Below, piece by piece: positions 48,104 to 64,000 of a stretch of 64,000 nucleotides of DNA. Below the pieces are notes generated by a model, which was not told where the DNA came from, did not search any database, and worked only from the letters and a program-made list of their open reading frames with translations. Position 1 is the stretch's first letter. Each line of letters starts with the position of its first letter. Both the position numbers and the translations under genes were made by a program. Source of the stretch: an uncultured virus (IMG/VR IMGVR_UViG_3300028591_000105) (taxonomy: Duplodnaviria; Heunggongvirae; Uroviricota; Caudoviricetes). The DNA lies in IMG/VR virus record IMGVR_UViG_3300028591_000105. One strand, 5' to 3'.

Positions 48104-48170
48104 TTATTTCACCTCTTTAATTTATTACTCCGCCATTAAAGGCCGGCGTAACGTAAAGTGAATAGCAAGA

Positions 48171-49758: not shown

Positions 49759-49781
49759 GAGGCTCACCTCCATTATAATTA

Positions 49782-49810: not shown

Positions 49811-49908
49811 TAGTTGATTAGGGTGCAGATGCAGGTGAAAAAATTGGTTCGTGAAAATTTGTTGGCAGCCACTTTAGTATGCTAAAGTGTAAAAGTTTTT
49901 TCAAAAAA

Positions 49909-49974
49909 AGCTACCCCCCATACGTCAAAGCTAGAGCTAGAGCTAGATGGGTCCTACAGGTACTTGAAAGCTAC
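49909..49974 (+). repeat. AGCTAG microrepeat cluster 1
   Basis: AGCTAG at 49929, 49935, 49941 flanked by AAGCTAC. Confidence 0.7.
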
Positions 49975-50201
49975 GCGCGGGAGTTTTAACCAATCCTCGG
50001 GAAATACTTTAGCGATTTAAAGTGCTAAAGTTAGTAGTTGCAAACCACTTTAGCGATTTAAAGTGCTAAATAGTTAAATCTTTTAATCAAATAGTTGACA
50101 AATAATTATAGATATAAGTTTCACTCTATCTTGGGGCAAATATTTAGTTAAAATTTTTAACTAAGATAAAAGAAAAGGTAGACTTTTGTCTACCTTTGAT
50201 T

Positions 50202-50414
50202 TTAGTAAACCATATCAAGAAACCACATTTCAGTATACTTGAAATCTATGTTGTATTGCTTGCACAGTGCTTTCATGTCAGCAATTGCGGATTCGGTTCT
50301 ATCGTTATAGACTTTATCCCAAAGAGCAAGCAGTTTTGCATACTTCGTTCCAGTCATTGCATTGAGAATTGCAACAGTCTTTTTCATATCAGTGATGTTA
50401 TAGTTTTTTGTCAT
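50202..50414 (-). CDS. early hypothetical protein
   Basis: AAGGA RBS, TAA stop, terminator at 50171-50197. Confidence 0.75.
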   Translation of the reverse strand: MTKNYNITDMKKTVAILNAMTGTKYAKLLALWDKVYNDRTESAIADMKALCKQYNIDFKYTEMWFLDMVY

Positions 50415-50526
50415 AGTAATCATTTCCTTTCATAGTCGATTATTGATAGTTATTGATAGAAGTTAGATTTTAAATTTTTGGTTCTGTTCTGCTCTTGATG
50501 TTGAGCAGAACAGAACAAGTGTTTTA

Positions 50527-50700
50527 TTAGGCGTTGTCGTCTGCGGAGATGTTCTGTGCCATCATCTTGTTGTAAGTGGCGTGAATTAACTTCTTAGCGT
50601 ACTTGTACTCGGTGATACGGAAGAACTTAATAGTGTTCTTGTGCTCAAAGCCGAACTTGTTGATGATGTCATTCTGCATTGCGGTAATAGTCTTAGTCAT
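50527..50700 (-). CDS. early hypothetical protein
   Basis: own TTGACA/TATAAT promoter (50750-50778), RBS, terminator. Confidence 0.75.
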   Translation of the reverse strand: MTKTITAMQNDIINKFGFEHKNTIKFFRITEYKYAKKLIHATYNKMMAQNISADDNA

Positions 50701-50859
50701 AGTAACACAACCTTTCAAGTTTTGGGGGTTTTCCCTTTTCTCTAATACTATTATAGCATATGATAGTTAGTTTGTCAATAGGTTTTTGCAAAGTTTTTTA
50801 TTTTCTATGTTTTGCACAAAAGGATCGATTGTTGTTTGTGTAGTTTGCACAAATGAGAA

Positions 50860-51300
50860 GATTAGTAAGGAATAGAATAAGAATAGAAAATATTAGAAGT
50901 AAGAATAGTTGAAGATAATAGTGTTATATTAATAAAGTATGACAGAATATGGCTAAAGTGTGAACGTCGCTCCGGCGCAGGGCGACGCTTTAGCGAGTTA
51001 AAGTAATGAAGTAGAGTAAGTAGTAATATAAAGATTATTAGTGAAAATAGTTATATGTAACAGTGTTATAATGTTAGAAGTAGTATTATATAACAGTGTT
51101 ATGTTGATGTTGAAGTAGTTATATATAACAGTGTTATATTTAAGTTATAGTAATATGAATATTAGTATGTATTAGATAGATTGAATATAATAGTAGTAAT
51201 ATATAATAGTGTTATATAATGTTAGATAAAAGTAGGAATAAAATATAGATAAAAATGATAAAATAATAGCAAATAAATAGGGCTTGATATAAGGAGTATT
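50860..51300 (+). repeat. C-depleted AT-rich non-coding tract with iteron-like repeats
   Basis: about five copies of (TAG)TTATATATAACAGTGTTAT-like unit (near 50915, 51048, 51081, 51116, 51194). Confidence 0.65.
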
Positions 51301-51410
51301 TGGGGCGGCACTTTAGTGCTTTAAAGTGCTAAAGTATTATCAATACAAATTAGTTAAATTTTTTAACTAATAGGAAAAATAAAAAGGTTGAGTTTCCTCA
51401 ACCTTTGATT

Positions 51411-51650
51411 TTACACCATCTCTTCCTGCTCATCTACAAAAAAGTAGTCTATCTTATTCCAATCAACTTTCCCATAAGGCATTACAACGTCAGGCTTTTC
51501 ATTGTTGATTTTTGTCACATATTCAGTGAGTTCCTCTTTGGTTCTGCCATAGCAATAGAAAGCAAGGTAGGTATCATTAGAAGTCTCCCGAGGAGTACCT
51601 GCATTATAAACGGTCGGAACTTTAGTCTTGTAGCAAATAGTGTTTGTCAT
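51411..51650 (-). CDS. early hypothetical protein
   Basis: promoter -35 at 51707, AAGGAG RBS, terminator 51381-51406. Confidence 0.8.
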   Translation of the reverse strand: MTNTICYKTKVPTVYNAGTPRETSNDTYLAFYCYGRTKEELTEYVTKINNEKPDVVMPYGKVDWNKIDYFFVDEQEEMV

Positions 51651-51909
51651 ATTGAACAACTCCTTTTCTTATTTTCTATATTAATTATAGCATACTTTTT
51701 TCTATTTGTCAATAGGTTTTTGCAATTTTTTTTACTTTCTACCTTTTGCACAAAAATCGATCAGTTATTTGTGCAGTTGGCATATGCTAACCAAATGTTA
51801 CCAAAGTGTGAACTCTGTGCCAGCGCTAAGTAGCGGATTAGTTAAAATTTTTAACTAATTTAAAAAGAAAAGAAAGACTGGAATCTTTTTCCAGTCTCTT
51901 TTTTTTTAG

Positions 51910-52137
51910 TTAAATCTTTAAACCAAACTTGTGTATAGTCATATCAATGGCGTCAAGTATATCAGCCATTTCAGAATTTGTGACTCTTACAGAAATATCA
52001 GAGAGTCCGCCATTCTCGCACTGCTTGCAAAGTCTTACACCACCATAGGCATATTCAAGGGTGAGATTCAAACCATGTACAGTATTGATATTGTCTACCT
52101 TAGTTCTGAGGATTTCCTTTGTGATTCTCTTTGTCAT
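51910..52137 (-). CDS. early hypothetical protein (LEYAYGGVRL)
   Basis: promoter -35 at 52207, RBS, terminator. Confidence 0.8.
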   Translation of the reverse strand: MTKRITKEILRTKVDNINTVHGLNLTLEYAYGGVRLCKQCENGGLSDISVRVTNSEMADILDAIDMTIHKFGLKI

Positions 52138-52475
52138 ATAAATCAATTCCTTTCTTTAGGACTTCCTGTCCTTTACTATATATATTATAACATACTCTTA
52201 TTTATTTGTCAATAGATTTTTTTAATTTCTACCTTTTGCACAAAAATGCTATTCCATTTTATGCAGTTGGCATATATTAACTGAATATTGCCAAAGTGTG
52301 AACACTGCGCCGGCGCAGGGCAGCGCTTTAGTGCTTTAAAGCGCAAAACTATTTTAGTTTTACAAAATGTTAATAATTGTTCACAAAATATTAATTGCAA
52401 TTGATTCAATTTCATGTTATAATAATATCAGAAACAAGGGAAAGACTCTTGAGGATACCGAAAGGATTTGATACT

Positions 52476-52676
52476 ATGATGAACACTATTGCAAGAGAAG
52501 ATCTTATAACCCGCGCAGATTTCTATGAGAATGCTGCTATGAATCTGAGTCGCGGCGAGTTCGTCCGTTTCTTCGGTTGCGAGCCGCATGACCCGCTTAC
52601 TTTCGACTATTCCTTCGATAATGTAGAATGGAATCAGTCACTTGAATTTGCATATCAGGCATATCTTGAAAGTTGA
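52476..52676 (+). CDS. early acidic protein, paralogue of 53462
   Basis: TTGCAA-17-TATAAT promoter at 52395; GCEP.D...F.Y.FD....WN..LE.AY.AY shared. Confidence 0.8.
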   Translation: MMNTIAREDLITRADFYENAAMNLSRGEFVRFFGCEPHDPLTFDYSFDNVEWNQSLEFAYQAYLES

Positions 52677-52932
52677 TAAAAGTCAAGGTTGAGGAAACTC
52701 AACCTTTCACTTTTTACAAGTGTTTCACACTTTAAAGCGCTAAAATGCACCACAAGCAGTATGGCGTTCATATTTTTGTTATATATGTCTAAAACATGAA
52801 CCTCACGCCGGCGCCCGGCGTGGATAGAAAATGAATGGAATGTTGCTAATGTGTGAACGGCGGCGGCGCGAGTTAGTTAAAAGATTTAATTAAATAGCAA
52901 AAGAAAAGGTTGAGAAAACTCAACCTTTGACT

Positions 52933-53121
52933 TTATACTGGACAATAACTAAATTCAAGGTTATCAATTACATCGTCAAGTTCCTCACCAATTTCTAACA
53001 AAAAATCAGTTAAAGCGTTATCCATTGCTTCCGTAAAACTTGGTGCAGTAATCCTATATGATCTTTCAATATATCCATCTCCGTATCCCTCTATATAGCA
53101 TATACTGATTGAATAAGTCAT
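52933..53121 (-). CDS. early acidic protein, paralogue of 62060
   Basis: YIEGYGDGY.ER.YRI...GEELDDVID shared. Confidence 0.8.
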   Translation of the reverse strand: MTYSISICYIEGYGDGYIERSYRITAPSFTEAMDNALTDFLLEIGEELDDVIDNLEFSYCPV

Positions 53122-53134
53122 TTTTATCAACTCC

Positions 53135-53281
53135 TTATATTCTAACTATTTCATAGCTCTTTGCGCCGTAAATTTTAAGATGGGTTTCTGCAAAAAGTTT
53201 CAAATCTACATCTGAATCCGCCTTGAACTGTCTTTTATAGCAGATATTACCTTTTCCGTTGTAGAATAAGATTTTATTCAT
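53135..53281 (-). CDS. early small protein (48 aa)
   Basis: promoter -35 at 53332, AAGGAG RBS, TAA. Confidence 0.7.
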   Translation of the reverse strand: MNKILFYNGKGNICYKRQFKADSDVDLKLFAETHLKIYGAKSYEIVRI

Positions 53282-53461
53282 TTTTATCAACTCCTTTATT
53301 GTACTTATATTATACCATATTCAAAGTAAAATGTCAATCGTCAAAACCACCAAATATTTTCTAAAACTTTGTGCAATTTACCAATTGAAAACTTGTCTGA
53401 TTTGTGCTATAATATATATAGTAAAACAAACAACGACCCTGAACCTAAGGAGATGTTTACT

Positions 53462-53638
53462 ATGACAACCAGAAAAGAATTTTATGAAATGCTCGTTGAA
53501 AACTTAACCCATGACGAATTTGTCAATACACTCGGTTGTGAGCCTGCCGATATTCAGGCTTTCGAGTATGATTTCGACACTGACGTTACGTGGAATATGG
53601 CTCTTGAGTATGCATATAATGCATACATTGATAATTGA
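53462..53638 (+). CDS. early acidic protein, paralogue of 52476
   Basis: TTGAAA-17-TATAAT promoter, AAGGAG RBS, GCGGGC hairpin terminator. Confidence 0.8.
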   Translation: MTTRKEFYEMLVENLTHDEFVNTLGCEPADIQAFEYDFDTDVTWNMALEYAYNAYIDN

Positions 53639-53852
53639 ATCCTACAAATCCTTTCGGGGATGGCGGGCGAAATGCCCGCTTTTCTCTTGTATTTAGTTAA
53701 AAAATTTAACCAACTGCCGGCGGCCGGCATGGGTTCACACTCTCTTAATATATATCTAAACTATGAACAGTTGCAGGCCGGCACTTTAGCGCTTTAAAGT
53801 ATTAAAGTATTAAATAAAAAAAAGAGGAACAGATGTTCCTCTTATTATAAGA

Positions 53853-54038
53853 TTAGCCTTTTGCTAATCTTAATCGCGCCATCAAGCGCAAAGATGAAGT
53901 AATCCAAAGCAAATCTTGGTCATCTACATCAACCGCCTGATTGTGCCAATCAAGAGCATACTTGTAGATAACTTCTGCATTGGAGAAGTCCTCACCATTG
54001 ATAGTGATACCAACAAACTTATCAATATTCTTAGCCAT
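53853..54038 (-). CDS. early hypothetical protein
   Basis: promoter, AAGGA RBS, terminator 53821-53843. Confidence 0.75.
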   Translation of the reverse strand: MAKNIDKFVGITINGEDFSNAEVIYKYALDWHNQAVDVDDQDLLWITSSLRLMARLRLAKG

Positions 54039-54181
54039 AAAAACACGTCCTTTCAAGTCAGGTGAGGTTCCGGTCTCTCCGTCCCTCTCACTATATATAT
54101 TATACCACAAAGCAGTATATAATGCAATAGGCAAAATACACAAATTTTTATTTCTCAAATTGTACATAGTGCCAATGCCTG

Positions 54182-54590
54182 GGCGCCTAGCGCCCTGGCG
54201 CTCATATTTTAGCGCTTTAAAGCGCAGCCGCGCGAGCCGGCGATTTAGTTAAATCTTTTAACAAAATAGACAAAATGAAAGAGGGCGTTCCCTTACCCTC
54301 TTTCGCCGCCGACTACTCCATTACGCGCCGTCCTGGGGGAACAGGCTAAAGGCGCGGGCAAATTGCCTACTCCATTTATTAGGGCTAAACTACACCATTG
54401 GTATCGACCTTCTTTCTCGCCCTTACTGTAATTATATTATACCACATCTAAGTCTATTTGTCAATACTCTCTCGCAAATTTAAATGTAAATTGTTTATTA
54501 ACTCACCGTTGCTAAATCGTGAACGCGGCGCCTAGCGCCCTGGCGCTCATATTTTAGCGCTTTAAAGCGCAGCCGCGCGAGCCGGCGATT
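54182..54590 (+). repeat. perfect 64-bp direct repeat pair (54182-54245 and 54527-54590)
   Basis: GGCGCCTAGCGCCCTGGCGCTCATATTTTAGCGCTTTAAAGCGCAGCCGCGCGAGCCGGCGATT identical in both copies. Confidence 0.95.
54272..54430 (-). ncRNA. candidate structured small RNA / TAG minigene transcript
   Basis: TTGACA-17-TATAAT promoter (54436-54464), three hairpins plus terminator, AATGGAGTAG twice; only ORF is ATG GTG TAG...TAA. Confidence 0.45.
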
Positions 54591-54766
54591 GTTCACAGTT
54601 TCGACATATGGTATTACTAAACTATGAACACTGGGAGGGACCGAGTTAGCCTATGCTAACTTTAAAACATTAAAGTGGTGTGCTCATATGAATATGCATT
54701 CATATGAATATATACTCATGTCTGATTTAGTTAAAATTTTTAATCAATTGGTAAAGCAAAAGGGCT

Positions 54767-55237
54767 TTACGCCCTTTTGATTAAATTCATCAAAGTTTTT
54801 TCATTGGTAAATGTTGCCTTTTCATATTTAATTTGGTAAGCAATTCCATTTACTGTAACGTCACCGTCCTCGGTAAACTTCTTATTATCCTTTTTCCATT
54901 CTATACCATTTATTTCAGTATAGAGCTTTTCAAAAATCTCCCCTTTGTTATACTTGCTATTTTCTACCATATCATTAAAGTACTCGGCAGAACAGATTAA
55001 AACAGGATTGAACAAAGTGAACATTAATTTCTTAATCTGCTTTGTGGGCTTAAATCTCAATGCCATTCCTGCGCCCCTGCTTGCTCTATCTAACGTGAGC
55101 AGAACGTCAAGGTGCTTTTCATCAGTAACCACATAATATACGTTCTTCTCCCACTCAAACCCGAAAACATAGTTGTGAGTATAAGCAAGCCTATTGTACC
55201 ACTCTATCATAGTCAGCAGAAGATTGATGTTTGTCAT
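54767..55237 (-). CDS. early protein, possible PD-(D/E)XK nuclease fold
   Basis: NKGEIFEK...GDVTVNGIAYQIK pattern; own promoter at 55309. Confidence 0.6.
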   Translation of the reverse strand: MTNINLLLTMIEWYNRLAYTHNYVFGFEWEKNVYYVVTDEKHLDVLLTLDRASRGAGMALRFKPTKQIKKLMFTLFNPVLICSAEYFNDMVENSKYNKGEIFEKLYTEINGIEWKKDNKKFTEDGDVTVNGIAYQIKYEKATFTNEKTLMNLIKRA

Positions 55238-55710
55238 ATAATCAAGTCCTTTCATTTTTAAGGTTTACCCTTGCTTTCTGATACTATTATAACACATAAA
55301 AAGCCGGTTGTCAATAGATTTTTGAAAAGTTTTTCATATTCTCTGTTTTGCACAAAAAAGTTGAATTATTTTGTGCACATTGTCTGTCAACCATTTTCCT
55401 TTACAAAGAAAGAGGGCGTGTCAAGTGATCCGCTTGACACGCTTATTTAATGTAAAGTATTTCTACTTTACAAAGGTGTTTGCTATTTAGTTAAAATTTT
55501 TAACTAAATCGCCGCCAGCGCTCAGTGTGGTGTTCATAGAATAGACATATGTGACTAAAGTGTGAACGGCGCGCCTCTTGCATGTTCATAGATTAGACAT
55601 ATGTGACTAAAGTGTGAACACATGGAGGGACTCGAGTTAGCCTATGCTAACTCATATCTCGCTTTAACGCTTTAAAGTGTTAGTACTTTACCATGAGTAA
55701 GTGGCTTTGT

Positions 55711-55838
55711 CCGGGCACGACTGGGCATGACCGGGCGAGCTGGGCTTTATCGTGCCCGGGCAAGCTGGGTTTGCCTGGAGAGCTAGAGGGCTCCTAGAGA
55801 GCTAGAGCTGAGCTAGAAAGCTAGGCTAGAAAGCTAGT
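55711..55838 (+). repeat. GC-rich CYGGGC repeats plus AGCTAG microrepeat cluster 2
   Basis: CCGGGC/CTGGGC at ~10-bp spacing then about six (A)GCTAG units. Confidence 0.7.
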
Positions 55839-55892
55839 GTTTAATTCACTACCTCGGCGCCGTGACCCTCACGACGCCCTTAATCTATATCT

Positions 55893-56060
55893 CTAATCCC
55901 ATTTACTCAATTGAACAAAATTGTGAGTATCCTTGCAGAATGGACAATACAAATTCTTCAAATGTTCCTTAGAAGTCATACGACTTGACTTCTTATATGC
56001 AGTAGCAACATAACCACAAGTTGGACATTTAAAACGACGTTCAGTAGTTGTCTTTTTCAT
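55893..56060 (-). CDS. Zn-ribbon protein resembling ribosomal protein L33, ends at TAG
   Basis: FKCPTCG...HLKNLYCPFCKDTHNF; GAGGTG RBS; 55 aa. Confidence 0.65.
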   Translation of the reverse strand: MKKTTTERRFKCPTCGYVATAYKKSSRMTSKEHLKNLYCPFCKDTHNFVQLSKWD

Positions 56061-56245
56061 TATTCGTTCACCTCACTTGCATAATCAGTCAGAATAATAA
56101 TTATATTCCAATCAGAATACTGTTTATAATTCCTATCACTAACATGATTTTTAGTTGCTATATCTATAAAACTTATAGCAAACCACATGATAAACATAAT
56201 AGCAATAGTCAACAGAAAATACCCAATCTTTTTAATTCCGTTCAT
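56060..56245 (-). CDS. early membrane protein
   Basis: single hydrophobic helix; promoter -35 at 56300. Confidence 0.7.
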   Translation of the reverse strand: MNGIKKIGYFLLTIAIMFIMWFAISFIDIATKNHVSDRNYKQYSDWNIIIILTDYASEVNE

Positions 56246-56430
56246 TTGGAACACTCCCTTTCTCTTTACTATAATAATTATAACAAAATTTTATAAAAAA
56301 GTCAATGAATAAATTGTAAATAATTATTAAAGATTTTATTACCATGCACCGGCGCAGCGAAGCATTTGGTTAAAAAATTTAATTAATTAATAAAAAGAAA
56401 ATTAAAGCGGACACTTACGTCCGCCTTAAA

Positions 56431-56943
56431 TTATTCTGCATAACAAACCATGTGCTTAAATCTACAGTATTCGTCTCTTTCGTTGCTCTTCCTAATAAAG
56501 AGGTGTTCAGTTTTGCCAAAACATGAAGTTACCTGACCGTGCACGTGAACAACACTCATAACATTTGACGGAGTAACGTCAAACTTTTCTGCGAGAACAT
56601 AAACGGACTGCTGACCATTTACCTTAATGTATTTCATTAACTTATTATACAGAACATATCCATAATCTTTTGTTTTGTATTCAATCTTTTCATCATCTCT
56701 AAGTGAAACGCAAAATCTTGCAATCTGCTGAGAAGTTGCATTGAAATATTTTGCAATATTAGCAATATCTTCTGTTCTGACAAAACCGTTATACTTTTCA
56801 AGTATATAATTAAGAATCTCATTCTTTCTTGCATTCAACTTCATTTTATCAAGTCTTCTCTGTGATACACTAATACTCGTTGTACCCTCTGCTTTAAGAA
56901 GATTTGCAAACTCGTCTACAGTAATGTTAATTCTCTTTCCCAT
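56431..56943 (-). CDS. early tandem HTH-like protein
   Basis: IAKYFNATSQQIARF and VLAEKFDVTPSNV helices; similar layout to 63111. Confidence 0.7.
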   Translation of the reverse strand: MGKRINITVDEFANLLKAEGTTSISVSQRRLDKMKLNARKNEILNYILEKYNGFVRTEDIANIAKYFNATSQQIARFCVSLRDDEKIEYKTKDYGYVLYNKLMKYIKVNGQQSVYVLAEKFDVTPSNVMSVVHVHGQVTSCFGKTEHLFIRKSNERDEYCRFKHMVCYAE

Positions 56944-57336
56944 AATGTACCTCTTTCTACCACTTTTGTGGATTTGACTTTTTTATTCGTGGGGTTCTTT
57001 CCCCCTTACCTTGCAATATTATTATACCACACCCACCAATAAAAATCAATAAGAAAATCCAAATAATTTTTAAAAGAATTATGAACGACTTCCAAAAAAT
57101 ACCAACCTCATTCCAACCCCTAACGCAAAATAATATGACCCCATTGTTAAATAAATATGACCCCTTTGTAAACAGCGGCCCGGCATAAATCAATCCGCTT
57201 TAAAGCATTAAAGTGACCCCTTTAAAAAAAAACAAGGGGAAATTAATACCCCTTGTTATCCAGTTAAGTAAACGTAACCGCCAGTTATTATCCCCGTACT
57301 TCAAACGCCACTTAACCCTTAAATTATGAAACTTTC

Positions 57337-57486
57337 TCATTTGTTTTCACTCTCCTCAAACATCTCATAATCTACATATTCTGTACCACAATATGGACAA
57401 GTATTATCTTCCGCAAGATTTGCAAATTCTGTGCCGCACTCGGTACAAAGATAATACTCACCGTCAAAAATTATCAGAGGTTCCAT
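57337..57486 (-). CDS. small Zn-ribbon protein (49 aa)
   Basis: YLCTECG...TCPYCG; ATG overlaps previous stop. Confidence 0.7.
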   Translation of the reverse strand: MEPLIIFDGEYYLCTECGTEFANLAEDNTCPYCGTEYVDYEMFEESENK

Positions 57487-57659
57487 TATACTTCTTTCCT
57501 TTCTTTTACTACACACGCAGATATACAGCGCGGATTTTGCTTTATCTTATGCATTTGACTAAATGCTATTTCCTTATTAGTATTAGAATAGTATCGAATC
57601 ACTTTTATAGAAGTGCCAACCTTAAAACGAATGATTACAGAATAGAACTTCTTCTTCAT
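57486..57659 (-). CDS. early basic small protein (57 aa)
   Basis: AAGGAAGTG RBS, TAA stop. Confidence 0.6.
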   Translation of the reverse strand: MKKKFYSVIIRFKVGTSIKVIRYYSNTNKEIAFSQMHKIKQNPRCISACVVKERKEV

Positions 57660-57663
57660 TTTA

Positions 57664-57849
57664 TCACTTCCTTAATGCCTTTTTCTTGTCCATTAAATAC
57701 CAAATAGCAGATTGAATTTTTTCTGCTTTTTCACTATCAGTCGTATGATACATACAAACCGTAAGAAACTGAATTAGAATGTCAAACTCTTCTTGAATCT
57801 TAAACTCATATGCTGAAATTATCAGTCTTGCTAACTGTCTTTCTGTCAT
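57664..57849 (-). CDS. early hypothetical protein
   Basis: promoter -35 at 57900, AGGGG RBS. Confidence 0.7.
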   Translation of the reverse strand: MTERQLARLIISAYEFKIQEEFDILIQFLTVCMYHTTDSEKAEKIQSAIWYLMDKKKALRK

Positions 57850-58016
57850 TCTTATCAACCCCTTTACTGTAATTATATTATATCATATAATCACAAAAAA
57901 GTCAATGAATATTTTGTAAACAATTTGTTAACTTGCACCGGGCGACACGTCGCCCTTTAAAGTGCTAAAGCGCAAAAAGCAAAAGAAAAGGGCGCGTAGT
58001 GCGCCCTTAGTTGATT

Positions 58017-58424
58017 TTACTCAACCTCGGCGGAGGGCTTGGTATAACCCTTCACCGTGTCCTTCTTCTTGCCCGTGGGCGTGAACTCACTGACAATGAT
58101 ACCATTCATCTTGGACAGCAGACCAGTCGCCTTCTGTGTAGAACTCAGACCGAAAAGGTCGGCAATTTCCTTTGCAGTATAAGTCTTGTCGAACTCCATA
58201 CCGTCAAAAATCTCGGCTCTCTTTGCGGCAGTTTCCTGCGCACTCTTGGAAGTGCCGTTCTTGCGGTTCTCATTGGCAGTGTCGAGTGCCTTGATACGAC
58301 CCTTAGCGAACTCAATCGCAGAATCGGTAAAAGTACCGTCCTCGTTGAGAACCTTGATGATTGCGCCGTCCTTAGTGGTCGCAGAACCATTGATGATAGC
58401 AGTGAAGAACTCTCTCTGTGTCAT
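58017..58424 (-). CDS. early winged-HTH protein
   Basis: MTQREFF N-terminus; TAKEIADLFGLSSTQKATGLL; promoter -35 at 58531. Confidence 0.75.
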   Translation of the reverse strand: MTQREFFTAIINGSATTKDGAIIKVLNEDGTFTDSAIEFAKGRIKALDTANENRKNGTSKSAQETAAKRAEIFDGMEFDKTYTAKEIADLFGLSSTQKATGLLSKMNGIIVSEFTPTGKKKDTVKGYTKPSAEVE

Positions 58425-58588
58425 AGTGTACCTCTTTCTCTGTTTTTAGGAGTTTGTCAGCTCTCTCTAATTTTGTTTTAGGGGCTTTCCCCTTACCTTA
58501 TGTATTAATTATACCATACTTTCTCTTGTTTGTCAATTAAGTTTCTTTTAAAACTTTTTGAACTTTTTGTTAAGAGATTTTTGGTAAA

Positions 58589-58659
58589 TACGCCCACCGA
58601 GAATCGAACTCGGATTGATAGATTAAAAGTCTACTATTCTACCTTTAAATTATAGGCGC
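58589..58659 (-). tRNA. trnK: tRNA-Lys(UUU), divergent, CCA not encoded adjacent
   Basis: GCGCCTA/TGGGCGT acceptor, ATTT/GAAT D stem with GG, GTAGA-CTTTTAA-TCTAT anticodon arm, CCGAG-TTCGATT-CTCGG T arm; upstream TAGACT-17-TATAAT. Confidence 0.85.
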
Positions 58660-58852
58660 ATTGGAGAGGTTTTCTATTTTTCTCTCTCTCTCGCTATATA
58701 TATATTATAGCAGATTTTTAGAAAAAAGTCTATAGATTGATTATTAATTTTATATATTTTTTACGTGAATTAGTTAAAATATTTAACTGAACCGCCAGTG
58801 GCCGGCGCATCGTTCACATCTTGTTAATAAAAAAGAGGGGCACTACCCCTCT

Positions 58853-59047
58853 TTAATATCCAGTATCAATTTCAGTGCCGTCCTCTGTGACTTCATAGAC
58901 ATGGTATTCATCATAATCAGTATGCGCAATAGGGCGGTGCATATCACTGTCAAATTCATCGTATGCTTTATTAAATGCCTCCTCTTCGTCCTCTGCTTCT
59001 ACAGAATAGGAATAACTTTGAATAAAATTTACGTAGTACTGTGCCAT
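58853..59047 (-). CDS. early acidic protein (VEAEDEEEA)
   Basis: AGAGG RBS, terminator 58829-58854. Confidence 0.75.
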   Translation of the reverse strand: MAQYYVNFIQSYSYSVEAEDEEEAFNKAYDEFDSDMHRPIAHTDYDEYHVYEVTEDGTEIDTGY

Positions 59048-59049
59048 TT

Positions 59050-59289
59050 TTATATACCTCTTTTCTTAAATTTTATTATTGTCTTTTTGAATTTATATAC
59101 ATTCATACCATGCTTATCTACTGCCTTTTTTATTTGATTTTCCTCAACTAAAGCCGTACAAATAGAAGTCACTTTATAAAAATTTCCGTTTACTTCTGAG
59201 GCAATTTCTCTTATAGAAAAATATTCCTTTTTATTTCTTGCCAAAAAATCCATAATTTCTTTTGCAATTTCTTTGTTTTCAATATTCAT
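59050..59289 (-). CDS. early winged-HTH protein
   Basis: FSIREIASEVNGNFYKVTSICTALVEENQI. Confidence 0.7.
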   Translation of the reverse strand: MNIENKEIAKEIMDFLARNKKEYFSIREIASEVNGNFYKVTSICTALVEENQIKKAVDKHGMNVYKFKKTIIKFKKRGI

Positions 59290-59290
59290 A

Positions 59291-59557
59291 TTACTACCTC
59301 TTTTCCTCTTTAAATTCTTCTTCTTGTGTATAACAACAAACTTGCCGCTCACCTAAATACCCCTTGAAAAATTTTTCATTGTTACAAAATTCATTTGTCA
59401 TTTCATCTATACATTCTTTTATCTCTTCTTCCTCATAATAATAATGCTTACCGTGGTCTTTAAGTATATCAGTCATAAATTCAAGTGCTTCTTTTCTATC
59501 AGTAAAAACTATAGGTTCATCATGACTATCAGACATTATATAAATTGTTTTCTTCAT
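59291..59557 (-). CDS. early acidic hypothetical protein ending TAG TAA
   Basis: promoter -35 at 59628, AAGGA RBS. Confidence 0.75.
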
Positions 59558-59802
59558 AGTATCAATCCTTTCTACTTTATAAGGTTCTCTTTTACTGTAA
59601 TTATATTATATCATATTCAAGAGTAAAAGTCAATGAATATTCTGTAAATTATCTATTAATACTCCACGCCGCCCTGCCATATTTTACCAGAAATACCATT
59701 TTTTAGTAGGGCGGCACTTTGTGACGGAACTATGAACATATGCGATGCCACCGTCGCAAGTGTTCACATTTGGTTCATAAAAAAAAGAGGGCATTGCCCT
59801 CT

Positions 59803-59973
59803 TTATATAAACTCCTGCCAATCGCCTATATATACGCTTTTTTCACCGCCAATTTCTCTTATCTCACAATCTGCGGGAACTGCCCAGAGACAATCATCAT
59901 CACAGCACGTTACAGTTACTTCCATATCATCGTCACACTCTTCTAAAAAGTCCTTTAATTCTTTTACTGTCAT
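59803..59973 (-). CDS. early acidic small protein (MTVKELKDFLEECDDDMEV)
   Basis: AAGGAGTG RBS, TAA, terminator. Confidence 0.75.
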   Translation of the reverse strand: MTVKELKDFLEECDDDMEVTVTCCDDDCLWAVPADCEIREIGGEKSVYIGDWQEFI

Positions 59974-59979
59974 ACTAAA

Positions 59980-60234
59980 TCACTCCTTTAATTCAGTTTC
60001 AAATAAAATATAATCTCCTACTTGTCCTGTTTCTTCCAAAAATTTTTTATCTTTTTCAATGATACAGCATAATTGGTCTAAACCATCTTCATATTCATCT
60101 TCATAATAAAGATACTCAATATTTTCGTAAGCATTTAAAGCACTTTCTTTTGTTAAAAATACTCCATAACACTCATGAAAAATATCTCCCTGTTCATAAT
60201 CATCGTTTCCCTCATATAAAACGTATACTTTCAT
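59980..60234 (-). CDS. early acidic protein (MKVYVLY...YGVFLTKESA)
   Basis: AGGAG RBS, intact ORF. Confidence 0.75.
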   Translation of the reverse strand: MKVYVLYEGNDDYEQGDIFHECYGVFLTKESALNAYENIEYLYYEDEYEDGLDQLCCIIEKDKKFLEETGQVGDYILFETELKE

Positions 60235-60235
60235 A

Positions 60236-60457
60236 TTAAATTACTCCTATCAAAAATTTAATTACATAATAAGTATTCATACCGCCTAATGCCCCATTAA
60301 TCAAAATCGCATTAAAGTTCTTTTCCTTTATACCGTCTATTAAACCGACAATACAAGTATAAAGAAAAACGAAACTTCCGACAGGAGACCCTGCGACAGT
60401 TAAACACGCGCCAAGGATAAGTACCCAAGCATTGATAGCAACTAACTTCTCTAACAT
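60236..60457 (-). CDS. early multi-pass membrane protein
   Basis: hydrophobic helices; promoter -35 at 60506. Confidence 0.7.
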   Translation of the reverse strand: MLEKLVAINAWVLILGACLTVAGSPVGSFVFLYTCIVGLIDGIKEKNFNAILINGALGGMNTYYVIKFLIGVI

Positions 60458-60654
60458 TGTCTCACGTCCTTTCTTTAATACTATTATATCATATAGAAAA
60501 CCAAATGTCAATGAATAAATTGTAAATTATTTGTTAACTCGCGCCGGCACGAGGTATGAACAAAATATTAACACTTACGATGCCACCGTCGTGGTTGTTC
60601 ATATTTTAGAAACATAAAATAAGGCGGAGTTCATTCTCCGCCATTAATTATTAT

Positions 60655-61092
60655 TTAGTTATTAAATTCATAGTAATGCAATTCAATAATTTTAGGATTT
60701 TTCCACCACCCTAATTTTTGAATTTCAGCATTCCAATCCTTTTTATCAAAATGCACATAAACAGTCACGCCGCTATATGATGAATATCCAATATGAACTA
60801 TCTTTTTATTCTTAAAACTACTATCTTGATTAAAGCGGGAATTTATTAAATTCACTCTTGTATAGCCGTGTTCTATTTCACCATGATGAACTCCATGTGT
60901 AATATCAACACGAGAATCTGCACAACAATCAAATTTAGTTATAATATTTTTATCTATCAATTCATTTACTATTATGGTTTCTCCTTTTTCTATTCTTTTT
61001 TTAATTTCATGGACAGAACATTCAATTGCATTATCAAAAACTTTTCCATCAAAAGATTCAAATTTTTCTACCATAACTTTAATTTTTTTCAT
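60655..61092 (-). CDS. early hypothetical protein (FESFDGKVFDNAIECSVHE)
   Basis: promoter -35 at 61166, RBS, terminator. Confidence 0.75.
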   Translation of the reverse strand: MKKIKVMVEKFESFDGKVFDNAIECSVHEIKKRIEKGETIIVNELIDKNIITKFDCCADSRVDITHGVHHGEIEHGYTRVNLINSRFNQDSSFKNKKIVHIGYSSYSGVTVYVHFDKKDWNAEIQKLGWWKNPKIIELHYYEFNN

Positions 61093-61272
61093 AACATCAA
61101 AACCTTTCTGTTTTATAGAGTTTTCTCTCTTTCTTTAATATTATTATAGCATATAAATACTCAATTGTCAATGAATATTTTGAAACAAATTGCGAAATTG
61201 TTATGAACATCTGCGACGCCACCGTCGTGGTTATTCATAAAATATTAAAGCGGGCGCAATGCCCGCTTATCA

Positions 61273-61584
61273 TCACCAAAAAATATGGAGTAAAAATTCT
61301 TCTGGAATATTTTTCTTCTTAATTTCATCTACTACACAATTGAGTATATTGACTGTACCATAATCTCCTTCCTCTACTGCCGTATCAATTGTCTCATAAA
61401 TCATATCCAAGTCCCATATTTTATAACTGTTATTCGCCTGAAATTCTGCAAAGATAGACCATAAAAGTCTTGGTCCCTCAAACGAGTCAAGATTAGAAAT
61501 AATCTCTCTATACCTTTCATTATCCATGAAAAACCTTTCAAAATATTCCATTTCAATAACCTTATACTCTTTGTATTCAATCAT
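61273..61584 (-). CDS. early acidic hypothetical protein
   Basis: promoter -35 at 61663, RBS, terminator. Confidence 0.75.
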   Translation of the reverse strand: MIEYKEYKVIEMEYFERFFMDNERYREIISNLDSFEGPRLLWSIFAEFQANNSYKIWDLDMIYETIDTAVEEGDYGTVNILNCVVDEIKKKNIPEEFLLHIFW

Positions 61585-61690
61585 AATATCAATCCTTTCA
61601 AATCTTTAAGATATTCTCTATATCTTTTACTGTAATTATATTATACCATATTCTAAGTCGTCTGTCAATGAACAAATTGTAAACTTTATT

Positions 61691-62041
61691 TTAATTTATT
61701 GAGTAGTTAATTAAAGTTTTGTCCGTCCATTTAGTATGTGTAACTGTTTTTGTTACTTCAATTTCATTGTTAATTTCAATATCGTTATACAGATTAACAT
61801 TAATAGTAAAAGTCTGTTCGCCGTCCTCTGTATCTATTACTACATAATATTTTCTAATATTTGTTTTACCACTGCGAACACATCTTGTATACTTATCCGT
61901 AACAGTTACATATACTGTGGCGTACTTAGATTCACCGAACATAAAATCAAGAGTGAAAAACGATAAAAGACCGATTAAAGCAATTGAAAATATAAGAAGT
62001 ACAAAAAACTTTATTATATCCTTTACATTTGATTTTGTCAT
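61691..62041 (-). CDS. early membrane-anchored protein
   Basis: N-terminal TM helix then beta-rich domain (VTVTDKYT...YYVVI). Confidence 0.75.
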   Translation of the reverse strand: MTKSNVKDIIKFFVLLIFSIALIGLLSFFTLDFMFGESKYATVYVTVTDKYTRCVRSGKTNIRKYYVVIDTEDGEQTFTINVNLYNDIEINNEIEVTKTVTHTKWTDKTLINYSIN

Positions 62042-62059
62042 TTTTTTCTCTCCTTTTTA

Positions 62060-62248
62060 TTATACTAAACGATAAGACCATTCAATATCATCAATTACAT
62101 CATCAAGTTCTTCACCAAGTTCTGCGAGAAATTGCGTTAAAGCACTGTCTAAAATGTCTGTGAGATTTTCCCCTGAAATACGATAATCTCTTTCAAAATA
62201 ACCGTCACCGTATCCCTCAATATATGTAATTGTAATTGCATATGTCAT
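62060..62248 (-). CDS. early acidic protein, paralogue of 52933
   Basis: shared YIEGYGDGY and GEELDDVID; promoter -35 at 62303. Confidence 0.8.
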   Translation of the reverse strand: MTYAITITYIEGYGDGYFERDYRISGENLTDILDSALTQFLAELGEELDDVIDDIEWSYRLV

Positions 62249-62411
62249 ATTAAACACAACCTTTCTTTACTGTAATTATATTATACCATATTCTAACTCA
62301 ATTGTCAATGAATATTTTGTAAATATTTTGCGAGATTGTTATGAACATCTGCGACGCCGCCGTCGTAACTGTTCATAAAAAGTTAAAACGGGCATAATGC
62401 CCGCTTTACAT

Positions 62412-62759
62412 TTATACTTCTGTTTCTCCTATCTTTTCCTGAAAATTTATATAATAATCAAGTATCATTTCATATTTTTCAATAACCTCTTCCAGTGTAT
62501 ATAACACTAAATCATCAAAAATGAAAATATTATCGACAGAATTTTCATCACTAACATCAAACTGATAAAACTCAACATCATCAAGTCCCGCTGATTCATT
62601 GTACAGATAAAGTAAAAAACGTTCCTTATCATCATCAGTGCAGTCTGCAAATTTAAAAGGACGTTCCTCTAAAACTACCTCTTCATAAAAAGTATCAAAG
62701 TCAAGTCCATTTTCTACCTCTACCCACTTGTTTTCCTTGTTAAATAACATTATTTTCAT
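62412..62759 (-). CDS. early highly acidic protein
   Basis: very D/E-rich; promoter -35 at 62834. Confidence 0.75.
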   Translation of the reverse strand: MKIMLFNKENKWVEVENGLDFDTFYEEVVLEERPFKFADCTDDDKERFLLYLYNESAGLDDVEFYQFDVSDENSVDNIFIFDDLVLYTLEEVIEKYEMILDYYINFQEKIGETEV

Positions 62760-63110
62760 GGTATCAATTCCTTTCTGTTTTATAGAGTTTTCTCTCTTTT
62801 CTTTAATACTATTATATCACACATAAGCCGTTTTGTCAATGAATAAATTGTAAACTATTTATTAATACTTTTTGCCGCCCTACCACATTCTGTCAGGAAT
62901 ACCAATTTTTGGTAGGGCGGCGCTTTGTAACTAAATTGTGAACATATACGATGGCAACGTCGTAAACATTTACAATTTAAATTCAAATTGTTTACATTTT
63001 ATTCATTGACTTCTGCTCAGATATATGCTATAATATAATTACAGTAAGGGAGAAAAAACTCCACGAACTGAAAAAATCAAATCCCTATAAGGGTAGAAAG
63101 AGGTATTATT

Positions 63111-63629
63111 ATGAAGATGAACAGAGAGTATTTTAACAAGTTAGCAGACATTATGTTTAATGGTGACGATGAGGTTGACGTTCCCGAAAGTTTTCGTAAA
63201 GCAGTCATGCATGGCGTTATTAAGGGAGAGATAAAAAAGGTAGCAGAGGAACTTTATCCTAATCATAAGCTTCCCAGTATTAGTGCTTCAACCACAATTG
63301 CAAAGAAACTGGGAAGAAATGCTAATCAGGTAGCTTATTATCTTAGTGAGTTAATACATGAAGATGAAATTTTTAATTGGGAATGGGAGCCTACTAATAC
63401 TAAGTCTGCAAAGGTTAATGATTTACTTAACAAGACTTTTTCTGAAAAAAATGTTCAGTACATGGACGTTTATACACTCGCAGAGCTTTTTGATATGACT
63501 GTAAATTCTATCATTGCTTGTGTAAGTAATGCCAATAGTCGTTGTGAAAAGTATTTTATAGAAACTCTGGATTGCTACGATGAAAGAGGTAGACGTATGA
63601 TTTATGTAAAACATTATAAGAACAGATAA
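63111..63629 (+). CDS. early tandem HTH-like protein
   Basis: TTGACT-17-TATAAT at 63006; IAKKLGRNANQVAYYL and TLAELFDMTVNSI. Confidence 0.75.
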   Translation: MKMNREYFNKLADIMFNGDDEVDVPESFRKAVMHGVIKGEIKKVAEELYPNHKLPSISASTTIAKKLGRNANQVAYYLSELIHEDEIFNWEWEPTNTKSAKVNDLLNKTFSEKNVQYMDVYTLAELFDMTVNSIIACVSNANSRCEKYFIETLDCYDERGRRMIYVKHYKNR

Positions 63630-63811
63630 TCTAAAGTGGGCGCAAATGCCCGCTTTCTTTTATCCTAATTATTAACAAAATGTTACAAAATGCCGGCGCG
63701 CCATAATAGAAAATTCATAAAATAAATACAATTTATTGATGATTCTAAAGGTGAGATATGGTATAATATAATTACAGTAAAGGGCAAAACCTAAAGGAAG
63801 GAATTGATATT

Positions 63812-64000
63812 ATGGACTATGTAAAAATTGACGTATATATGGAGCAGATTAATTTTGATTATACCAATCTGTTTAAGATAAGAAGGCACAGAAGCTTTTC
63901 AAGTATGGAACTTCTTTATGCTCATCTTCTTTCATCGTGTATCTCAGTTGTTGAAATGGACACAACTAAGATTGAAGATGAAACGAATAAACTTAAAGAG
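63812..64000 (+). CDS. early hypothetical protein (3' end outside window)
   Basis: TATAAT at 63762, AAGGA RBS, open frame to window end. Confidence 0.65.
   Translation, partial: MDYVKIDVYMEQINFDYTNLFKIRRHRSFSSMELLYAHLLSSCISVVEMDTTKIEDETNKLKE

What the first reader, a model, noticed from the sequence alone, without database searches (positions are those of the whole stretch)
50202..64000. Sharp boundary: early cassette genes are code-neutral, with no internal TAG
Seen: about 25 small genes right of 50 kb hold roughly 40 Gln codons, none of them TAG, whereas almost every gene left of 49.8 kb has at least one. Even the capsid and major tail genes, which otherwise prefer CAG/CAA, keep a TAG near the 5' end (codons 57 and 66). 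Inference: the host uses the standard code and the phage switches code during infection; here replication genes (DnaE, dUTPase, RuvC) are gated too, not only structural genes.
Basis: partly seen in the sequence, partly recalled or inferred. Interest (0 to 1): 0.7.

Follow-up and report, generated by a model that had tools for sequence, protein, structure and literature searches.

The report
TAG-free early cassette, amber-recoded phage
A large gut phage that reads the stop codon TAG as glutamine in its late and replication genes keeps a block of about 31 small genes with host-type promoters free of internal TAG, an instance of the already described two-code layout of recoded phages.

Summary
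Left of 49.8 kb, 34 of 36 genes carry in-frame TAG: 285 TAG in 16,261 codons, and none ends in TAG. Right of 50.2 kb, 31 genes preceded by a Shine-Dalgarno (SD) ribosome-binding site hold 49 Gln codons and no internal TAG, and two of them end in TAG (Fisher 1.4e-11). The result is not circular, because no credible TAG-bearing gene hides in that region.

TAG means Gln. Two standard-code sister phages have the same residue profile at the window's TAG sites as at its CAA/CAG sites.

The TAG-free block also holds all 12 perfect TTGACA-17-TGnTATAAT promoters of the window. It has 37 terminator-like sites against 6.2 expected.

Replication genes do carry TAG. The "5' gate codon" in the capsid-like and tail genes is neither conserved nor more than chance. 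No suppressor tRNA lies in the window. Three recoded relatives each have a tRNA(CUA) elsewhere in the genome.

This layout is already published (Borges et al. preprint). The new detail is that the first recoded gene at the boundary is a TAG-dense sigma-like regulator. It has its own host-type promoter and is recoded in all four recoded genomes examined.

The parts
50202..64000 (.). Early cassette compatible with both codes: 31 small genes (27 on the - strand, 4 on the + strand) and one tRNA. No internal TAG.
   Evidence: 28 of 31 genes match no PHROG family. 27 of 31 have no tblastn match in five relatives. Two paralogue pairs support real coding.
50750..63034 (.). Span holding about 17 sigma-A-type promoters with an extended -10 (TTGACA-17-TGnTATAAT). 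12 are perfect, all on the - strand, with -35 hexamers starting at 50778, 51712, 52212, 53337, 54464, 55314, 58536, 60511, 61171, 61668, 62308 and 62839. Intrinsic terminators follow most units.
   Evidence: 12 of 12 perfect sites, and 18 of 21 sites with at most one mismatch, lie right of 50.7 kb. Terminator-like sites: 37 found against 6.2 +/- 2.7 expected.
55893..56060 (-). Early zinc-ribbon gene (55 aa, phrog_1257) that ends in TAG (55893-55895). The next in-frame stop is 8 codons downstream.
   Evidence: The G002 homologue (65% identity) ends at the same residue, also with TAG.
59294..59557 (-). Early gene (87 aa) that ends in TAG (59294-59296). The next in-frame stop is one codon downstream.
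58588..58660 (-). tRNA-Lys(UUU), the only tRNA in the window. It is not a suppressor.
   Evidence: A promoter-like site lies at 58732-58704.
49759..50201 (.). Boundary region without a gene. It holds three copies of the CACTTTAG..TTTAAAG repeat, two copies of the TTAGTTAAA..TTTAACTAA palindrome, the terminator of gene 50202-50414, and the promoter-like site and SD of the sigma-like gene.
48568..49758 (-). First recoded gene: sigma-factor-like protein (396 aa from GTG 49758). 16 TAG, the first at codon 69. It has its own TTGACT-17-TATACT promoter-like site (49809-49781, TG upstream of the -10) and a GGAGGTG SD.
   Evidence: (phrog_5767, E = 2e-23).
6220..48446 (-). TAG-recoded late operon. It includes small/large terminase region genes (TerL 45352-47154), portal 43802-45352, capsid-like 40381-41526, five phrog_2729 paralogues 27674-37029, tape measure 17537-25309, Dit 14911-17478 and the 1737-aa tail protein 9679-14892.
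1..6142 (+). Replication and nucleotide module that carries TAG: DnaE-type polymerase (cut by the window's left end) 1-2691, a 312-aa gene, a ClpP-like protease 3849-4571, dUTPase 4587-5411 and RuvC-like 5411-6142. 17 TAG of 62 Gln codons.
41344..41346 (-). The single TAG of the capsid-like gene (codon 61, or 57 from the ATG). Glu in all five relatives.
36832..36834 (-). First TAG (codon 66) of the tail-tube-like gene 34372-37029. Glu at this site in the four relatives whose alignment covers it (G001, G003, G004, G005); G002's match does not reach it.

Best explanation
The window is about 64 kb of a siphovirus-like phage of roughly 150 kb. Its host is a Bacillota (probably Clostridia-type) bacterium of the ruminant gut. 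The phage reads TAG as glutamine in its late genes and in most of its replication genes.

The segment 50.2-64.0 kb is its host-polymerase-driven early cassette. It consists of about 20 short transcription units, each with a near-consensus sigma-A promoter and an intrinsic terminator, and encodes small, fast-evolving proteins. These genes are translated by the unmodified host apparatus, where release factor 1 stops at TAG. They therefore carry no internal TAG, and two of them still use TAG as a terminator.

Genes to the left begin with a sigma-like regulator directly at the boundary. They can be completed only once a phage tRNA with anticodon CUA has accumulated. All three recoded relatives have such a tRNA. 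In this phage it would lie outside the window. TAG therefore acts as a translational delay on middle and late functions.

Shown: the TAG distribution, TAG = Gln, the promoter and terminator architecture, and the same partition in relatives. Inferred: the order of expression, the presence of the suppressor in this phage, the host's code, and that the pattern is maintained by selection.
For: TAG PARTITION. 285 TAG in 36 genes on the left; 0 internal TAG in 31 genes on the right. The result survives a non-circular re-reading.

TAG = GLN.
- At the window's TAG sites, standard-code relatives G003 and G004 have Q 37/34%, K 15/14% and E 10/10%.
- At its CAA/CAG sites they have Q 41/40%, K 13/14% and E 9/9%.
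- Gln is the best assignment by 139-149 log-likelihood units.
- Counting TAG as Gln raises the Gln content from 2.4% to 4.2%, against 3.7-3.9% in the orthologous regions of G003 and G004.

HOST-TYPE SIGNALS MARK THE SAME BOUNDARY.
- 12 of 12 perfect TTGACA-17-TATAAT sites, all with TG upstream of the -10, lie right of 50.7 kb.
- Terminator-like sites number 37 against 6.2 expected.

TAG STILL TERMINATES IN EARLY GENES. Two of 30 early genes end in TAG. The zinc-ribbon gene and its 65%-identical G002 homologue end at the same residue, both with TAG.

THE FAMILY HOLDS BOTH CODES (ORF density under code 11 / code 15).
- G003 0.883/0.886 and G004 0.888/0.897. Neither has a suppressor tRNA.
- Window 0.555/0.915, G001 0.715/0.878, G002 0.75/0.892, G005 0.59/0.866.
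- G001, G002 and G005 each have a tRNA(CUA).

THE PARTITION RECURS IN RELATIVES.
- In G005 the cassette next to the sigma-like gene (140-153 kb) has 0 TAG in its 7 genes of at least 100 aa, and sigma-A-like sites are enriched there.
- Among 67 reciprocal-best G001/G002 gene pairs, 27 are TAG-free in both, 25 carry TAG in both and 15 are discordant (Fisher 7e-6; Spearman 0.59).
- Individual TAG sites are rarely shared: 12%, 7.5% and 18% of the window's sites are TAG in G001, G002 and G005.

LITERATURE. Passages of the Borges et al. preprint (10.1101/2021.08.26.457843) describe this model.
Against: - No suppressor tRNA, release factor or aminoacyl-tRNA synthetase is in the window. The rest of this genome could not be retrieved, so the switch machinery of this particular phage is unseen.
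- There is no expression data. No listed holder of the sequence is an RNA run. 'Early' rests on promoter consensus only.
- The sigma-like gene also has a host-type promoter, so promoter type alone does not separate the two blocks.
- TAG avoidance is also seen in late genes with strong CAG preference. The capsid-like and tail homologues of G001 and G002 have 0 TAG. Early genes share that CAG preference: 65% against 24%. Part of the depletion could therefore reflect selection for efficient translation rather than timing.
- The cassette turns over quickly. 27 of 31 genes have no homologue in five relatives, and there are strain-level insertions and deletions. Recent arrival from standard-code phages could also keep it TAG-free.
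- In relative G001 the endolysin has no TAG, which does not fit a strict 'lysis timer'.
Confidence: 0.75

Rival explanations
1. Expression-level codon selection, not timing. Suppression of TAG is slow or leaky, so TAG is purged from any strongly expressed gene. The cassette is TAG-free because its genes sit behind consensus promoters and are highly translated, as the capsid-like gene is.
For: - Early genes prefer CAG (32 of 49) as the five CAG-preferring late genes do (52 CAG, 17 CAA, 9 TAG). The bulk of late genes have a CAG share of 24%.
- The capsid-like and tail homologues of recoded G001 and G002 have 0 TAG.
Against: - Even at the low TAG rate of those five genes (9 of 78), zero TAG among 49 Gln codons has P = 0.0025.
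- This idea does not explain why TAG is retained as a terminator at a conserved C-terminus in two phages.
- It does not explain why the switch coincides with a promoter and terminator architecture boundary.
- It is not exclusive of the main explanation.
Confidence: 0.12
2. History, not function. The cassette is a mosaic region with rapid turnover that is exchanged with co-circulating standard-code relatives. Its genes have not resided long enough in a suppressor background to acquire TAG by drift.
For: - 27 of 31 cassette genes have no tblastn match in five relatives, whereas 33 of 36 left-hand genes match in at least three of the five.
- Contigs of related strains skip whole cassette genes.
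- Standard-code sister phages exist.
- TAG sites in general are young, with only 7.5-18% shared between relatives.
Against: - TAG-free status is concordant between orthologues that have diverged to 25-76% identity in two recoded phages: 27 are TAG-free in both (Fisher 7e-6). Residence time is therefore not limiting for those genes.
- The conserved zinc-ribbon gene keeps a TAG stop in both phages.
Confidence: 0.1
3. There is no switch. The host itself reads TAG as glutamine, and the phage simply mirrors its host.
For: None found here. The host is unidentified.
Against: - Early genes avoid TAG completely, and two end in it.
- Sister phages G003 and G004 use TAG only as a rare stop (4 of 188 and 7 of 178 genes).
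- The recoded relatives carry their own tRNA(CUA).
- rpoB has no internal stops in the three MAGs with which relatives were binned.
- From recall, not from a call: no bacterium with TAG = Gln is known to me.
Confidence: 0.02

Closest known systems
Alternatively coded (TAG->Gln, code 15) gut phages with a standard-code-compatible early block. Sources: Borges et al., bioRxiv 10.1101/2021.08.26.457843 (passages read). crAss-like phages, Yutin et al. PMC7886860, and Mgcod, 10.1101/2022.06.29.495998 (search listings and abstract starts only).
   Same: - In-frame TAG is concentrated in structural and late genes.
- A contiguous block is free of the recoded stop.
- Hosts are predicted to use the standard code.
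- Relatives carry suppressor tRNAs.
- Close relatives use different codes.
- Replication genes are 'variably' recoded.
   Different: - Here the TAG-free block is additionally defined by about 17 near-consensus sigma-A promoters and by terminators.
- The first recoded gene is a sigma-like regulator. The words 'sigma' and 'RNA polymerase' occur 0 times in that preprint.
- The preprint's supplementary tables were not seen, so I cannot say whether this lineage is one of its named clades.
phAss-1 / proposed Phassvirus and its wider group, which includes Enterococcus phage EF1. Source: Babkin et al. 2023, PMC10607447 (abstract and sections 2.1 and 3 read).
   Same: - Phages of about 136-170 kb from gut samples, with hosts presumed to be Clostridia or Bacillota.
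- TAG->Gln in TerL, portal, tape-measure and some DNA-processing genes, with tRNA(CUA) genes.
- The window's capsid-like protein matches phAss-1 at 33.5% identity (E = 3e-46).
- TerL and the sigma-like protein match Enterococcus phages EF1, H1 and VRE9 at 25-36% identity.
   Different: - The relationship is distant: no nucleotide-level match to any record in the phage collection.
- That paper reports 28% of ORFs recoded. It does not describe an early/late code boundary or promoter architecture in the parts I read.
Host-takeover early gene modules of large Bacillus phages, for example SPO1. Recalled from memory, not from any call.
   Same: Many small, fast-evolving genes in short operons behind strong sigma-A promoters, followed by phage-encoded sigma-type factors that redirect transcription.
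   Different: - Those phages use the standard code throughout.
- No homology between their early genes and the genes here was tested or seen.

Membership tests
Code-15 (TAG->Gln) recoded phage with a standard-code early block | Conserved phage genes are broken by in-frame TAG under code 11 and are restored to full length when TAG is read as sense. | tested here: met
   ORF density is 0.555 under code 11 and 0.915 with TAG as sense. TerL, portal, tape measure, Dit and DnaE are recovered full length and match PHROG families.
Code-15 (TAG->Gln) recoded phage with a standard-code early block | TAG corresponds to glutamine. | tested here: met
   At 198 and 216 aligned TAG sites the residue profile in the standard-code relatives equals the profile at CAA/CAG sites. 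Gln is the best assignment by 139-149 log-likelihood units. The Gln content becomes normal when TAG is counted as Gln.
Code-15 (TAG->Gln) recoded phage with a standard-code early block | A phage-encoded suppressor tRNA(CUA) or other code-change machinery. | tested here: inconclusive
   None in the 64-kb window (ARAGORN; Rfam; PHROGs). The window is under half of the genome. Three of three recoded relatives have a tRNA(CUA), 30-59 kb beyond the sigma-like gene.
Code-15 (TAG->Gln) recoded phage with a standard-code early block | A contiguous gene block lacks the recoded stop. | tested here: met
   0 internal TAG in 31 genes and 2,585 codons, where 45 would be expected at the left-hand rate.
Code-15 (TAG->Gln) recoded phage with a standard-code early block | The host uses the standard code. 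| not testable with these tools
   The host is not identified. Indirect evidence only: standard-code sister phages, TAG stops in early genes, and open rpoB in the MAGs with which relatives were binned.
Code-15 (TAG->Gln) recoded phage with a standard-code early block | The TAG-free block is expressed before the recoded block. | not testable with these tools
   No listed holder of the sequence is an RNA run. The order is inferred from promoter type only.
Sigma-70 family factor (gene 48568-49758) | A region 4 helix-turn-helix domain. | tested here: inconclusive
   VIA-align places residues 263-345 on region 4 of SigB (Z 6.2, rmsd 2.4, 69 residues aligned), on ECF sigmas and on T. aquaticus sigma-A (Z 5.2-6.2). 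The tool itself calls such Z values middling. Foldseek found nothing at E <= 0.001. The model has mean pLDDT 67.8.
Sigma-70 family factor (gene 48568-49758) | A region 2 domain (core binding and -10 recognition). | tested here: inconclusive
   No Pfam family at E <= 0.01. The PDB profile search found no sigma factor. No sigma region 2 rows appear. The only positive evidence is phrog_5767 'sigma factor' at E = 2e-23 and 'sigma factor' annotations in Enterococcus and Geobacillus phages.
Sigma-A (housekeeping) promoters of Bacillota | TTGACA, a 17-nt spacer, TATAAT, with TG upstream of the -10. | tested here: met
   12 perfect 12/12 sites, all with TG, plus 6 more with one mismatch, all within 50.7-63.0 kb. 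Whether they function was not tested.
HK97-fold major capsid protein (gene 40381-41526) | The HK97 fold. | tested here: inconclusive
   The AlphaFold model is unusable (mean pLDDT 34.2). There is no Pfam or PDB sequence match. phrog_4088 has no assigned function. The label rests on the gene's position and its codon usage.

The most novel reading that the evidence does not exclude
The code switch may be wired upstream of transcription. The sigma-like regulator that heads the late gene array is transcribed from a host-type promoter. It is among the most TAG-dense genes: 16 TAG in 396 codons here, and 11, 6 and 9 TAG in the three recoded relatives, against 0 in the standard-code ones. Its mRNA would then be present early but untranslatable until the phage tRNA(CUA) accumulates. 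In that case the suppressor tRNA, not a protein, would be the first timer of the middle/late programme, giving a translational lock on a transcriptional cascade. After the switch, the early proteins that end in TAG would also gain short C-terminal extensions.
Probability: 0.3. Interest if true: 0.6.

Novelty: new member of a known kind. Interest (0 to 1): 0.35.

Why it matters
The window is a clean, well-delimited example of a two-code phage genome in a Bacillota-infecting lineage that has standard-code sisters. The code boundary coincides to within about 450 nt with a boundary in promoter, terminator and gene-size architecture. That makes the published model (early genes in the host code, later genes behind a suppressor) directly testable, by timing the cassette against the sigma-like gene.

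It also corrects an attractive over-reading. Single TAGs near the 5' ends of abundant structural genes are lineage-specific substitutions, not conserved gates.

For annotation, the practical point is that the region must be called with two codes. Under code 15 alone, two early genes are over-extended and spurious antisense ORFs displace the true small genes.

Tried and rejected
RETRIEVING THE REST OF THE GENOME, TO LOOK FOR THE SUPPRESSOR tRNA.
- No whole genome is held for the window.
- Exact end-of-window patterns found nothing in viral contigs, metagenome contigs or genome contigs.
- Megablast of 40-62 kb against the phage collection gave no match.
- The search of earlier findings returned no earlier notes.

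EXPRESSION. No RNA holder was listed for 48-58 kb. The laid runs are contigs only, so they give no start, end or level information.

SIGMA-LIKE PROTEIN.
- Pfam gave no hit at E <= 0.01.
- The PDB profile search gave only a chance-level row (E = 0.17).
- Foldseek gave nothing at E <= 0.001.
- Only VIA-align gave middling region-4 matches.

CAPSID-LIKE PROTEIN. The structure prediction failed (pLDDT 34.2), so no fold search was run on it. The PDB sequence searches of the capsid-like and tail-like proteins gave nothing useful.

GENE CALLER. A greedy length-based caller with TAG as sense miscalls the early region, preferring antisense read-through ORFs (window bins 50-60 kb). I replaced it there with SD-anchored calls.

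REJECTED IDEAS.
- The tRNA-Lys(UUU) in the cassette is not the decoder of TAG. Its anticodon is ordinary, and the same tRNA is present in the standard-code relatives.
- A hidden suppressor tRNA does not lie between 58425 and 58587. That gap holds a perfect promoter for the next gene, and Rfam found nothing there.
- TAGs are not biased to the 5' end. One post-hoc hint is not significant after any correction: all 3 capsid-like TAGs in the window and G005 lie in the first quarter of the gene.

Full report
WHAT THE WINDOW IS.

Read with TAG as a sense codon, the window resolves into a dense phage genome segment. On the + strand, 1-6142 holds a replication and nucleotide module:
- a DnaE-type polymerase cut by the window's left end;
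- a 312-aa gene;
- a ClpP-like protease;
- a dUTPase;
- a RuvC-like resolvase.

On the - strand, 6220-49758 is one long array. It holds a sigma-factor-like gene, TerL, portal, a capsid-like gene, head-tail genes, five paralogues of a tail-tube-like 'virion structural protein', a 2,590-aa tape measure, Dit and a 1,737-aa tail protein (PHROGs).

Starts are preceded by GGAGG-type Shine-Dalgarno sites. TerL is 39% identical to that of Geobacillus virus E3. It also matches large siphoviruses of Bacillus, Enterococcus, Lactococcus and Clostridia (146 records).

Relatives of 144-172 kb exist in IMG/VR (17 loci, TerL 56-69% identical). One more lies on a 153-kb contig binned with a Clostridia MAG (TerL 71%). 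The sequence itself is held in full by a sheep gut metagenome run, and parts of it or of relatives are held by goat and bovine gut runs.

CHECKING THE OBSERVATION.

Left of 49.9 kb, 36 genes hold 285 in-frame TAG in 16,261 codons, against 301 CAA and 96 CAG. 34 of 36 genes have at least one TAG, and none ends in TAG.

Right of 50.2 kb I called genes by requiring an SD site before the start. This gave 31 genes and 2,585 codons. They hold 17 CAA and 32 CAG, and no internal TAG. Their stops are 22 TAA, 6 TGA and 2 TAG.

The contrast is far beyond chance:
- Fisher 4e-17 by genes;
- 1.4e-11 by Gln codons;
- 2e-5 even against the lightly recoded replication genes alone.

Calling genes under the standard code forbids internal TAG by construction, so I repeated the scan with only TAA and TGA as stops. 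The TAG-containing SD-preceded ORFs of 30 aa or more fall into three groups:
- tiny ones with weak SD sites;
- frames buried out of phase in the called genes;
- the two TAG-terminated genes, extended by 8 codons and 1 codon.

The result is therefore not circular. Only 57% of the region is coding (7,839 of 13,799 nt). Two paralogue pairs among the small genes argue that they are real genes.

Contigs from three runs bridge the boundary, so it is not an assembly join.

WHAT TAG MEANS.

Two relatives, G003 and G004, are entirely standard-code. Their ORF density is the same under both codes and they have no suppressor tRNA. They serve as a ruler.
- At the window's TAG sites they have Q 37/34%, K 15/14% and E 10/10%.
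- At the window's CAA/CAG sites they have Q 41/40%, K 13/14% and E 9/9%.
- Gln beats every other residue by 139-149 log-likelihood units.
- Counting TAG as Gln brings the Gln content of the late genes from 2.4% to 4.2%. The orthologous regions of G003 and G004 have 3.7-3.9%.

WHAT ELSE CHANGES AT THE BOUNDARY.

All 12 perfect TTGACA-17-TATAAT sites of the window lie between 50.7 and 62.9 kb. Every one has TG upstream of the -10, and all are on the - strand. So do 18 of the 21 sites with at most one mismatch. Terminator-like hairpins number 37 against 6.2 +/- 2.7 expected.

The region is thus about 20 short transcription units with host-type signals. Its genes are small and mostly orphans. 28 of 31 match no PHROG family, and 27 of 31 have no match in five relatives. 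Related strains differ by whole-gene insertions and deletions.

This is the architecture of an early, host-polymerase-dependent module. The timing itself is inferred, not shown.

EVIDENCE THAT TAG STILL TERMINATES THERE.

Two early genes end in TAG. One is a zinc-ribbon protein (phrog_1257). It has a 65%-identical homologue in the recoded relative G002 that ends at exactly the same residue, also with TAG, followed by a terminator hairpin.

In the standard-code relatives TAG is a rare stop (4 of 188 and 7 of 178 genes).

THE FAMILY CONTEXT.

G001, G002 and G005 are recoded and each has a tRNA(CUA) in a tRNA cluster. In G001 and G002 that cluster lies in a TAG-poor region with many sigma-A-like sites. 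By synteny it lies 30-59 kb beyond the sigma-like gene, which is outside this window.

The window's only tRNA is Lys(UUU). That tRNA is also the only one of the standard-code relatives.

In G005, the closest and equally heavily recoded relative, the cassette adjoining the sigma-like gene again has no TAG in its 7 genes of at least 100 aa. The late array there has 11-25 TAG per 1,000 codons.

Between G001 and G002, TAG-free status is concordant in 67 orthologue pairs: 27 are TAG-free in both, 25 carry TAG in both and 15 are discordant (Fisher 7e-6). Individual TAG sites, in contrast, are rarely shared. That argues for gene-level constraint rather than shared history alone.

In G001 the TAG-free set includes RNA ligases, a polynucleotide kinase, an RtcB-like protein, a thymidylate-synthase-like protein and a primase/helicase. 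It also includes the endolysin.

The single TAG of the capsid-like gene and the first TAG of the tail gene are real. Both sites are Glu in all five relatives. The capsid-like and tail homologues of G001 and G002 have no TAG, and G005's TAGs in these genes are at other positions.

Over 33 genes the first TAG is where uniform placement predicts (0.216 against 0.210). TAG and CAA/CAG positions do not differ (p = 0.10).

The labels 'capsid' and 'major tail' are plausible from position, codon usage and one 'tail tube protein' annotation. I could not confirm them.

'Replication genes are gated too' is true for the genes in the window. [quoted passage not shown] (section 3). In G001 the DnaE homologue has no TAG, and in G002 it has one. 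This phage is simply further along.

THE MOST INTERESTING DETAIL.

The first recoded gene, 48568-49758, abuts the boundary.
- Its start is GTG at 49758, preceded by a GGAGGTG SD.
- A TTGACT-17-TATACT site with TG upstream of the -10 lies at 49809-49781.
- The gene has 16 TAG in 396 codons, the first at codon 69.
- Its homologues have 11, 6 and 9 TAG in the three recoded relatives.
- PHROGs and some deposited annotations call it a sigma factor.
- A mid-confidence model places residues 263-345 on sigma region 4 with middling scores.
- Pfam, the PDB profile search and Foldseek are silent.

If it is the late transcription factor, the suppressor tRNA would gate transcription through translation. 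I found no such proposal in one five-term full-text search or in the Borges preprint. That is a narrow search.

RIVALS.
- Codon selection in highly expressed genes. Early genes share the CAG preference of the abundant structural genes. This reduces the significance but does not remove it (P = 0.0025).
- Rapid turnover of the cassette. This is countered by the conserved TAG-free orthologues and by the conserved TAG stop.
- A host that reads TAG as Gln. This is contradicted by everything above.

The first two may well contribute alongside the main explanation.

VERDICT.

The phenomenon is an instance of a published kind, in a lineage close to one where TAG recoding was already reported. The 5'-gate claim is not supported. 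The switch machinery and the timing remain unseen for this phage.

Noticed in passing
window 50005-57972: 14 copies (0.01 expected) of a repeat, CACTTTAGYGMTTTAAAGYGC, occur only in the left two-thirds of the early cassette. Three of them lie just upstream of the sigma-like gene. They could be binding sites or promoters for a phage factor.
   Followed up: partly
window 50070-58790: 12 copies (0.6 expected) of an AT-rich palindrome, TTAGTTAAA-N3-TTTAACTAA, mostly lie directly downstream of the intrinsic terminators of early units. They look like operators.
   Followed up: partly
window 59728-62977: Five copies of a hairpin-forming repeat, ATGAACAT..GCCACCGTCG..TGTTCAT, lie between early units in the right third of the cassette (family D10).
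   Followed up: no
window 58588-58660: A tRNA-Lys(UUU) with its own promoter-like site sits inside the early cassette. A tRNA-Lys(UUU) is the only tRNA of the two standard-code relatives, and it adjoins the suppressor tRNA in G001.
   Followed up: partly
window 27674-37029: Five tandem paralogues (303-885 aa) of phrog_2729 share N- and C-terminal domains. The C-terminal domain is annotated 'tail tube protein' in one Bacillus phage. Only the last paralogue (34372-37029) prefers CAG.
   Followed up: no
window 25324-27630: A 768-aa gene with 14 TAG lies between the tape measure and the tail paralogues. It has no PHROG or Pfam family and no tblastn match in any of five relatives.
   Followed up: no
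window 50202-64000 against 1-49872: Early proteins are poor in Gln (1.9% against 4.2% with TAG counted). They prefer CAG (65%) where late genes prefer CAA (CAG 24%). At the window's TAG sites the standard-code relatives mostly use CAA (about 75%), so TAG behaves like the AT-rich synonym.
   Followed up: partly
window 55893-56060: The TAG-terminated early zinc-ribbon protein matches phrog_1257, annotated 'ribosome associated inhibitor A; zinc finger domain' (host takeover category), at E = 9e-12.
   Followed up: no
L050 (G001 27510-27603), L041 (G002 23440-23520), L081 (G005 43941-44015): The suppressor tRNA(CUA) genes of the three recoded relatives differ in build: 94 nt with a long extra arm, 81 nt and 75 nt. 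They may not share one origin.
   Followed up: no
window 56355-59303: Contigs of related strains (runs X3 and X5) skip 57341-57485, 56356-57496 and 58871-59302. Whole early genes therefore come and go between strains (table 8).
   Followed up: no
window 3616-3644: The only near-consensus sigma-A-type site with TG in the left 50 kb lies inside the replication module, just upstream of the TAG-free 60-aa ORF 3670-3852 and the ClpP-like gene.
   Followed up: no
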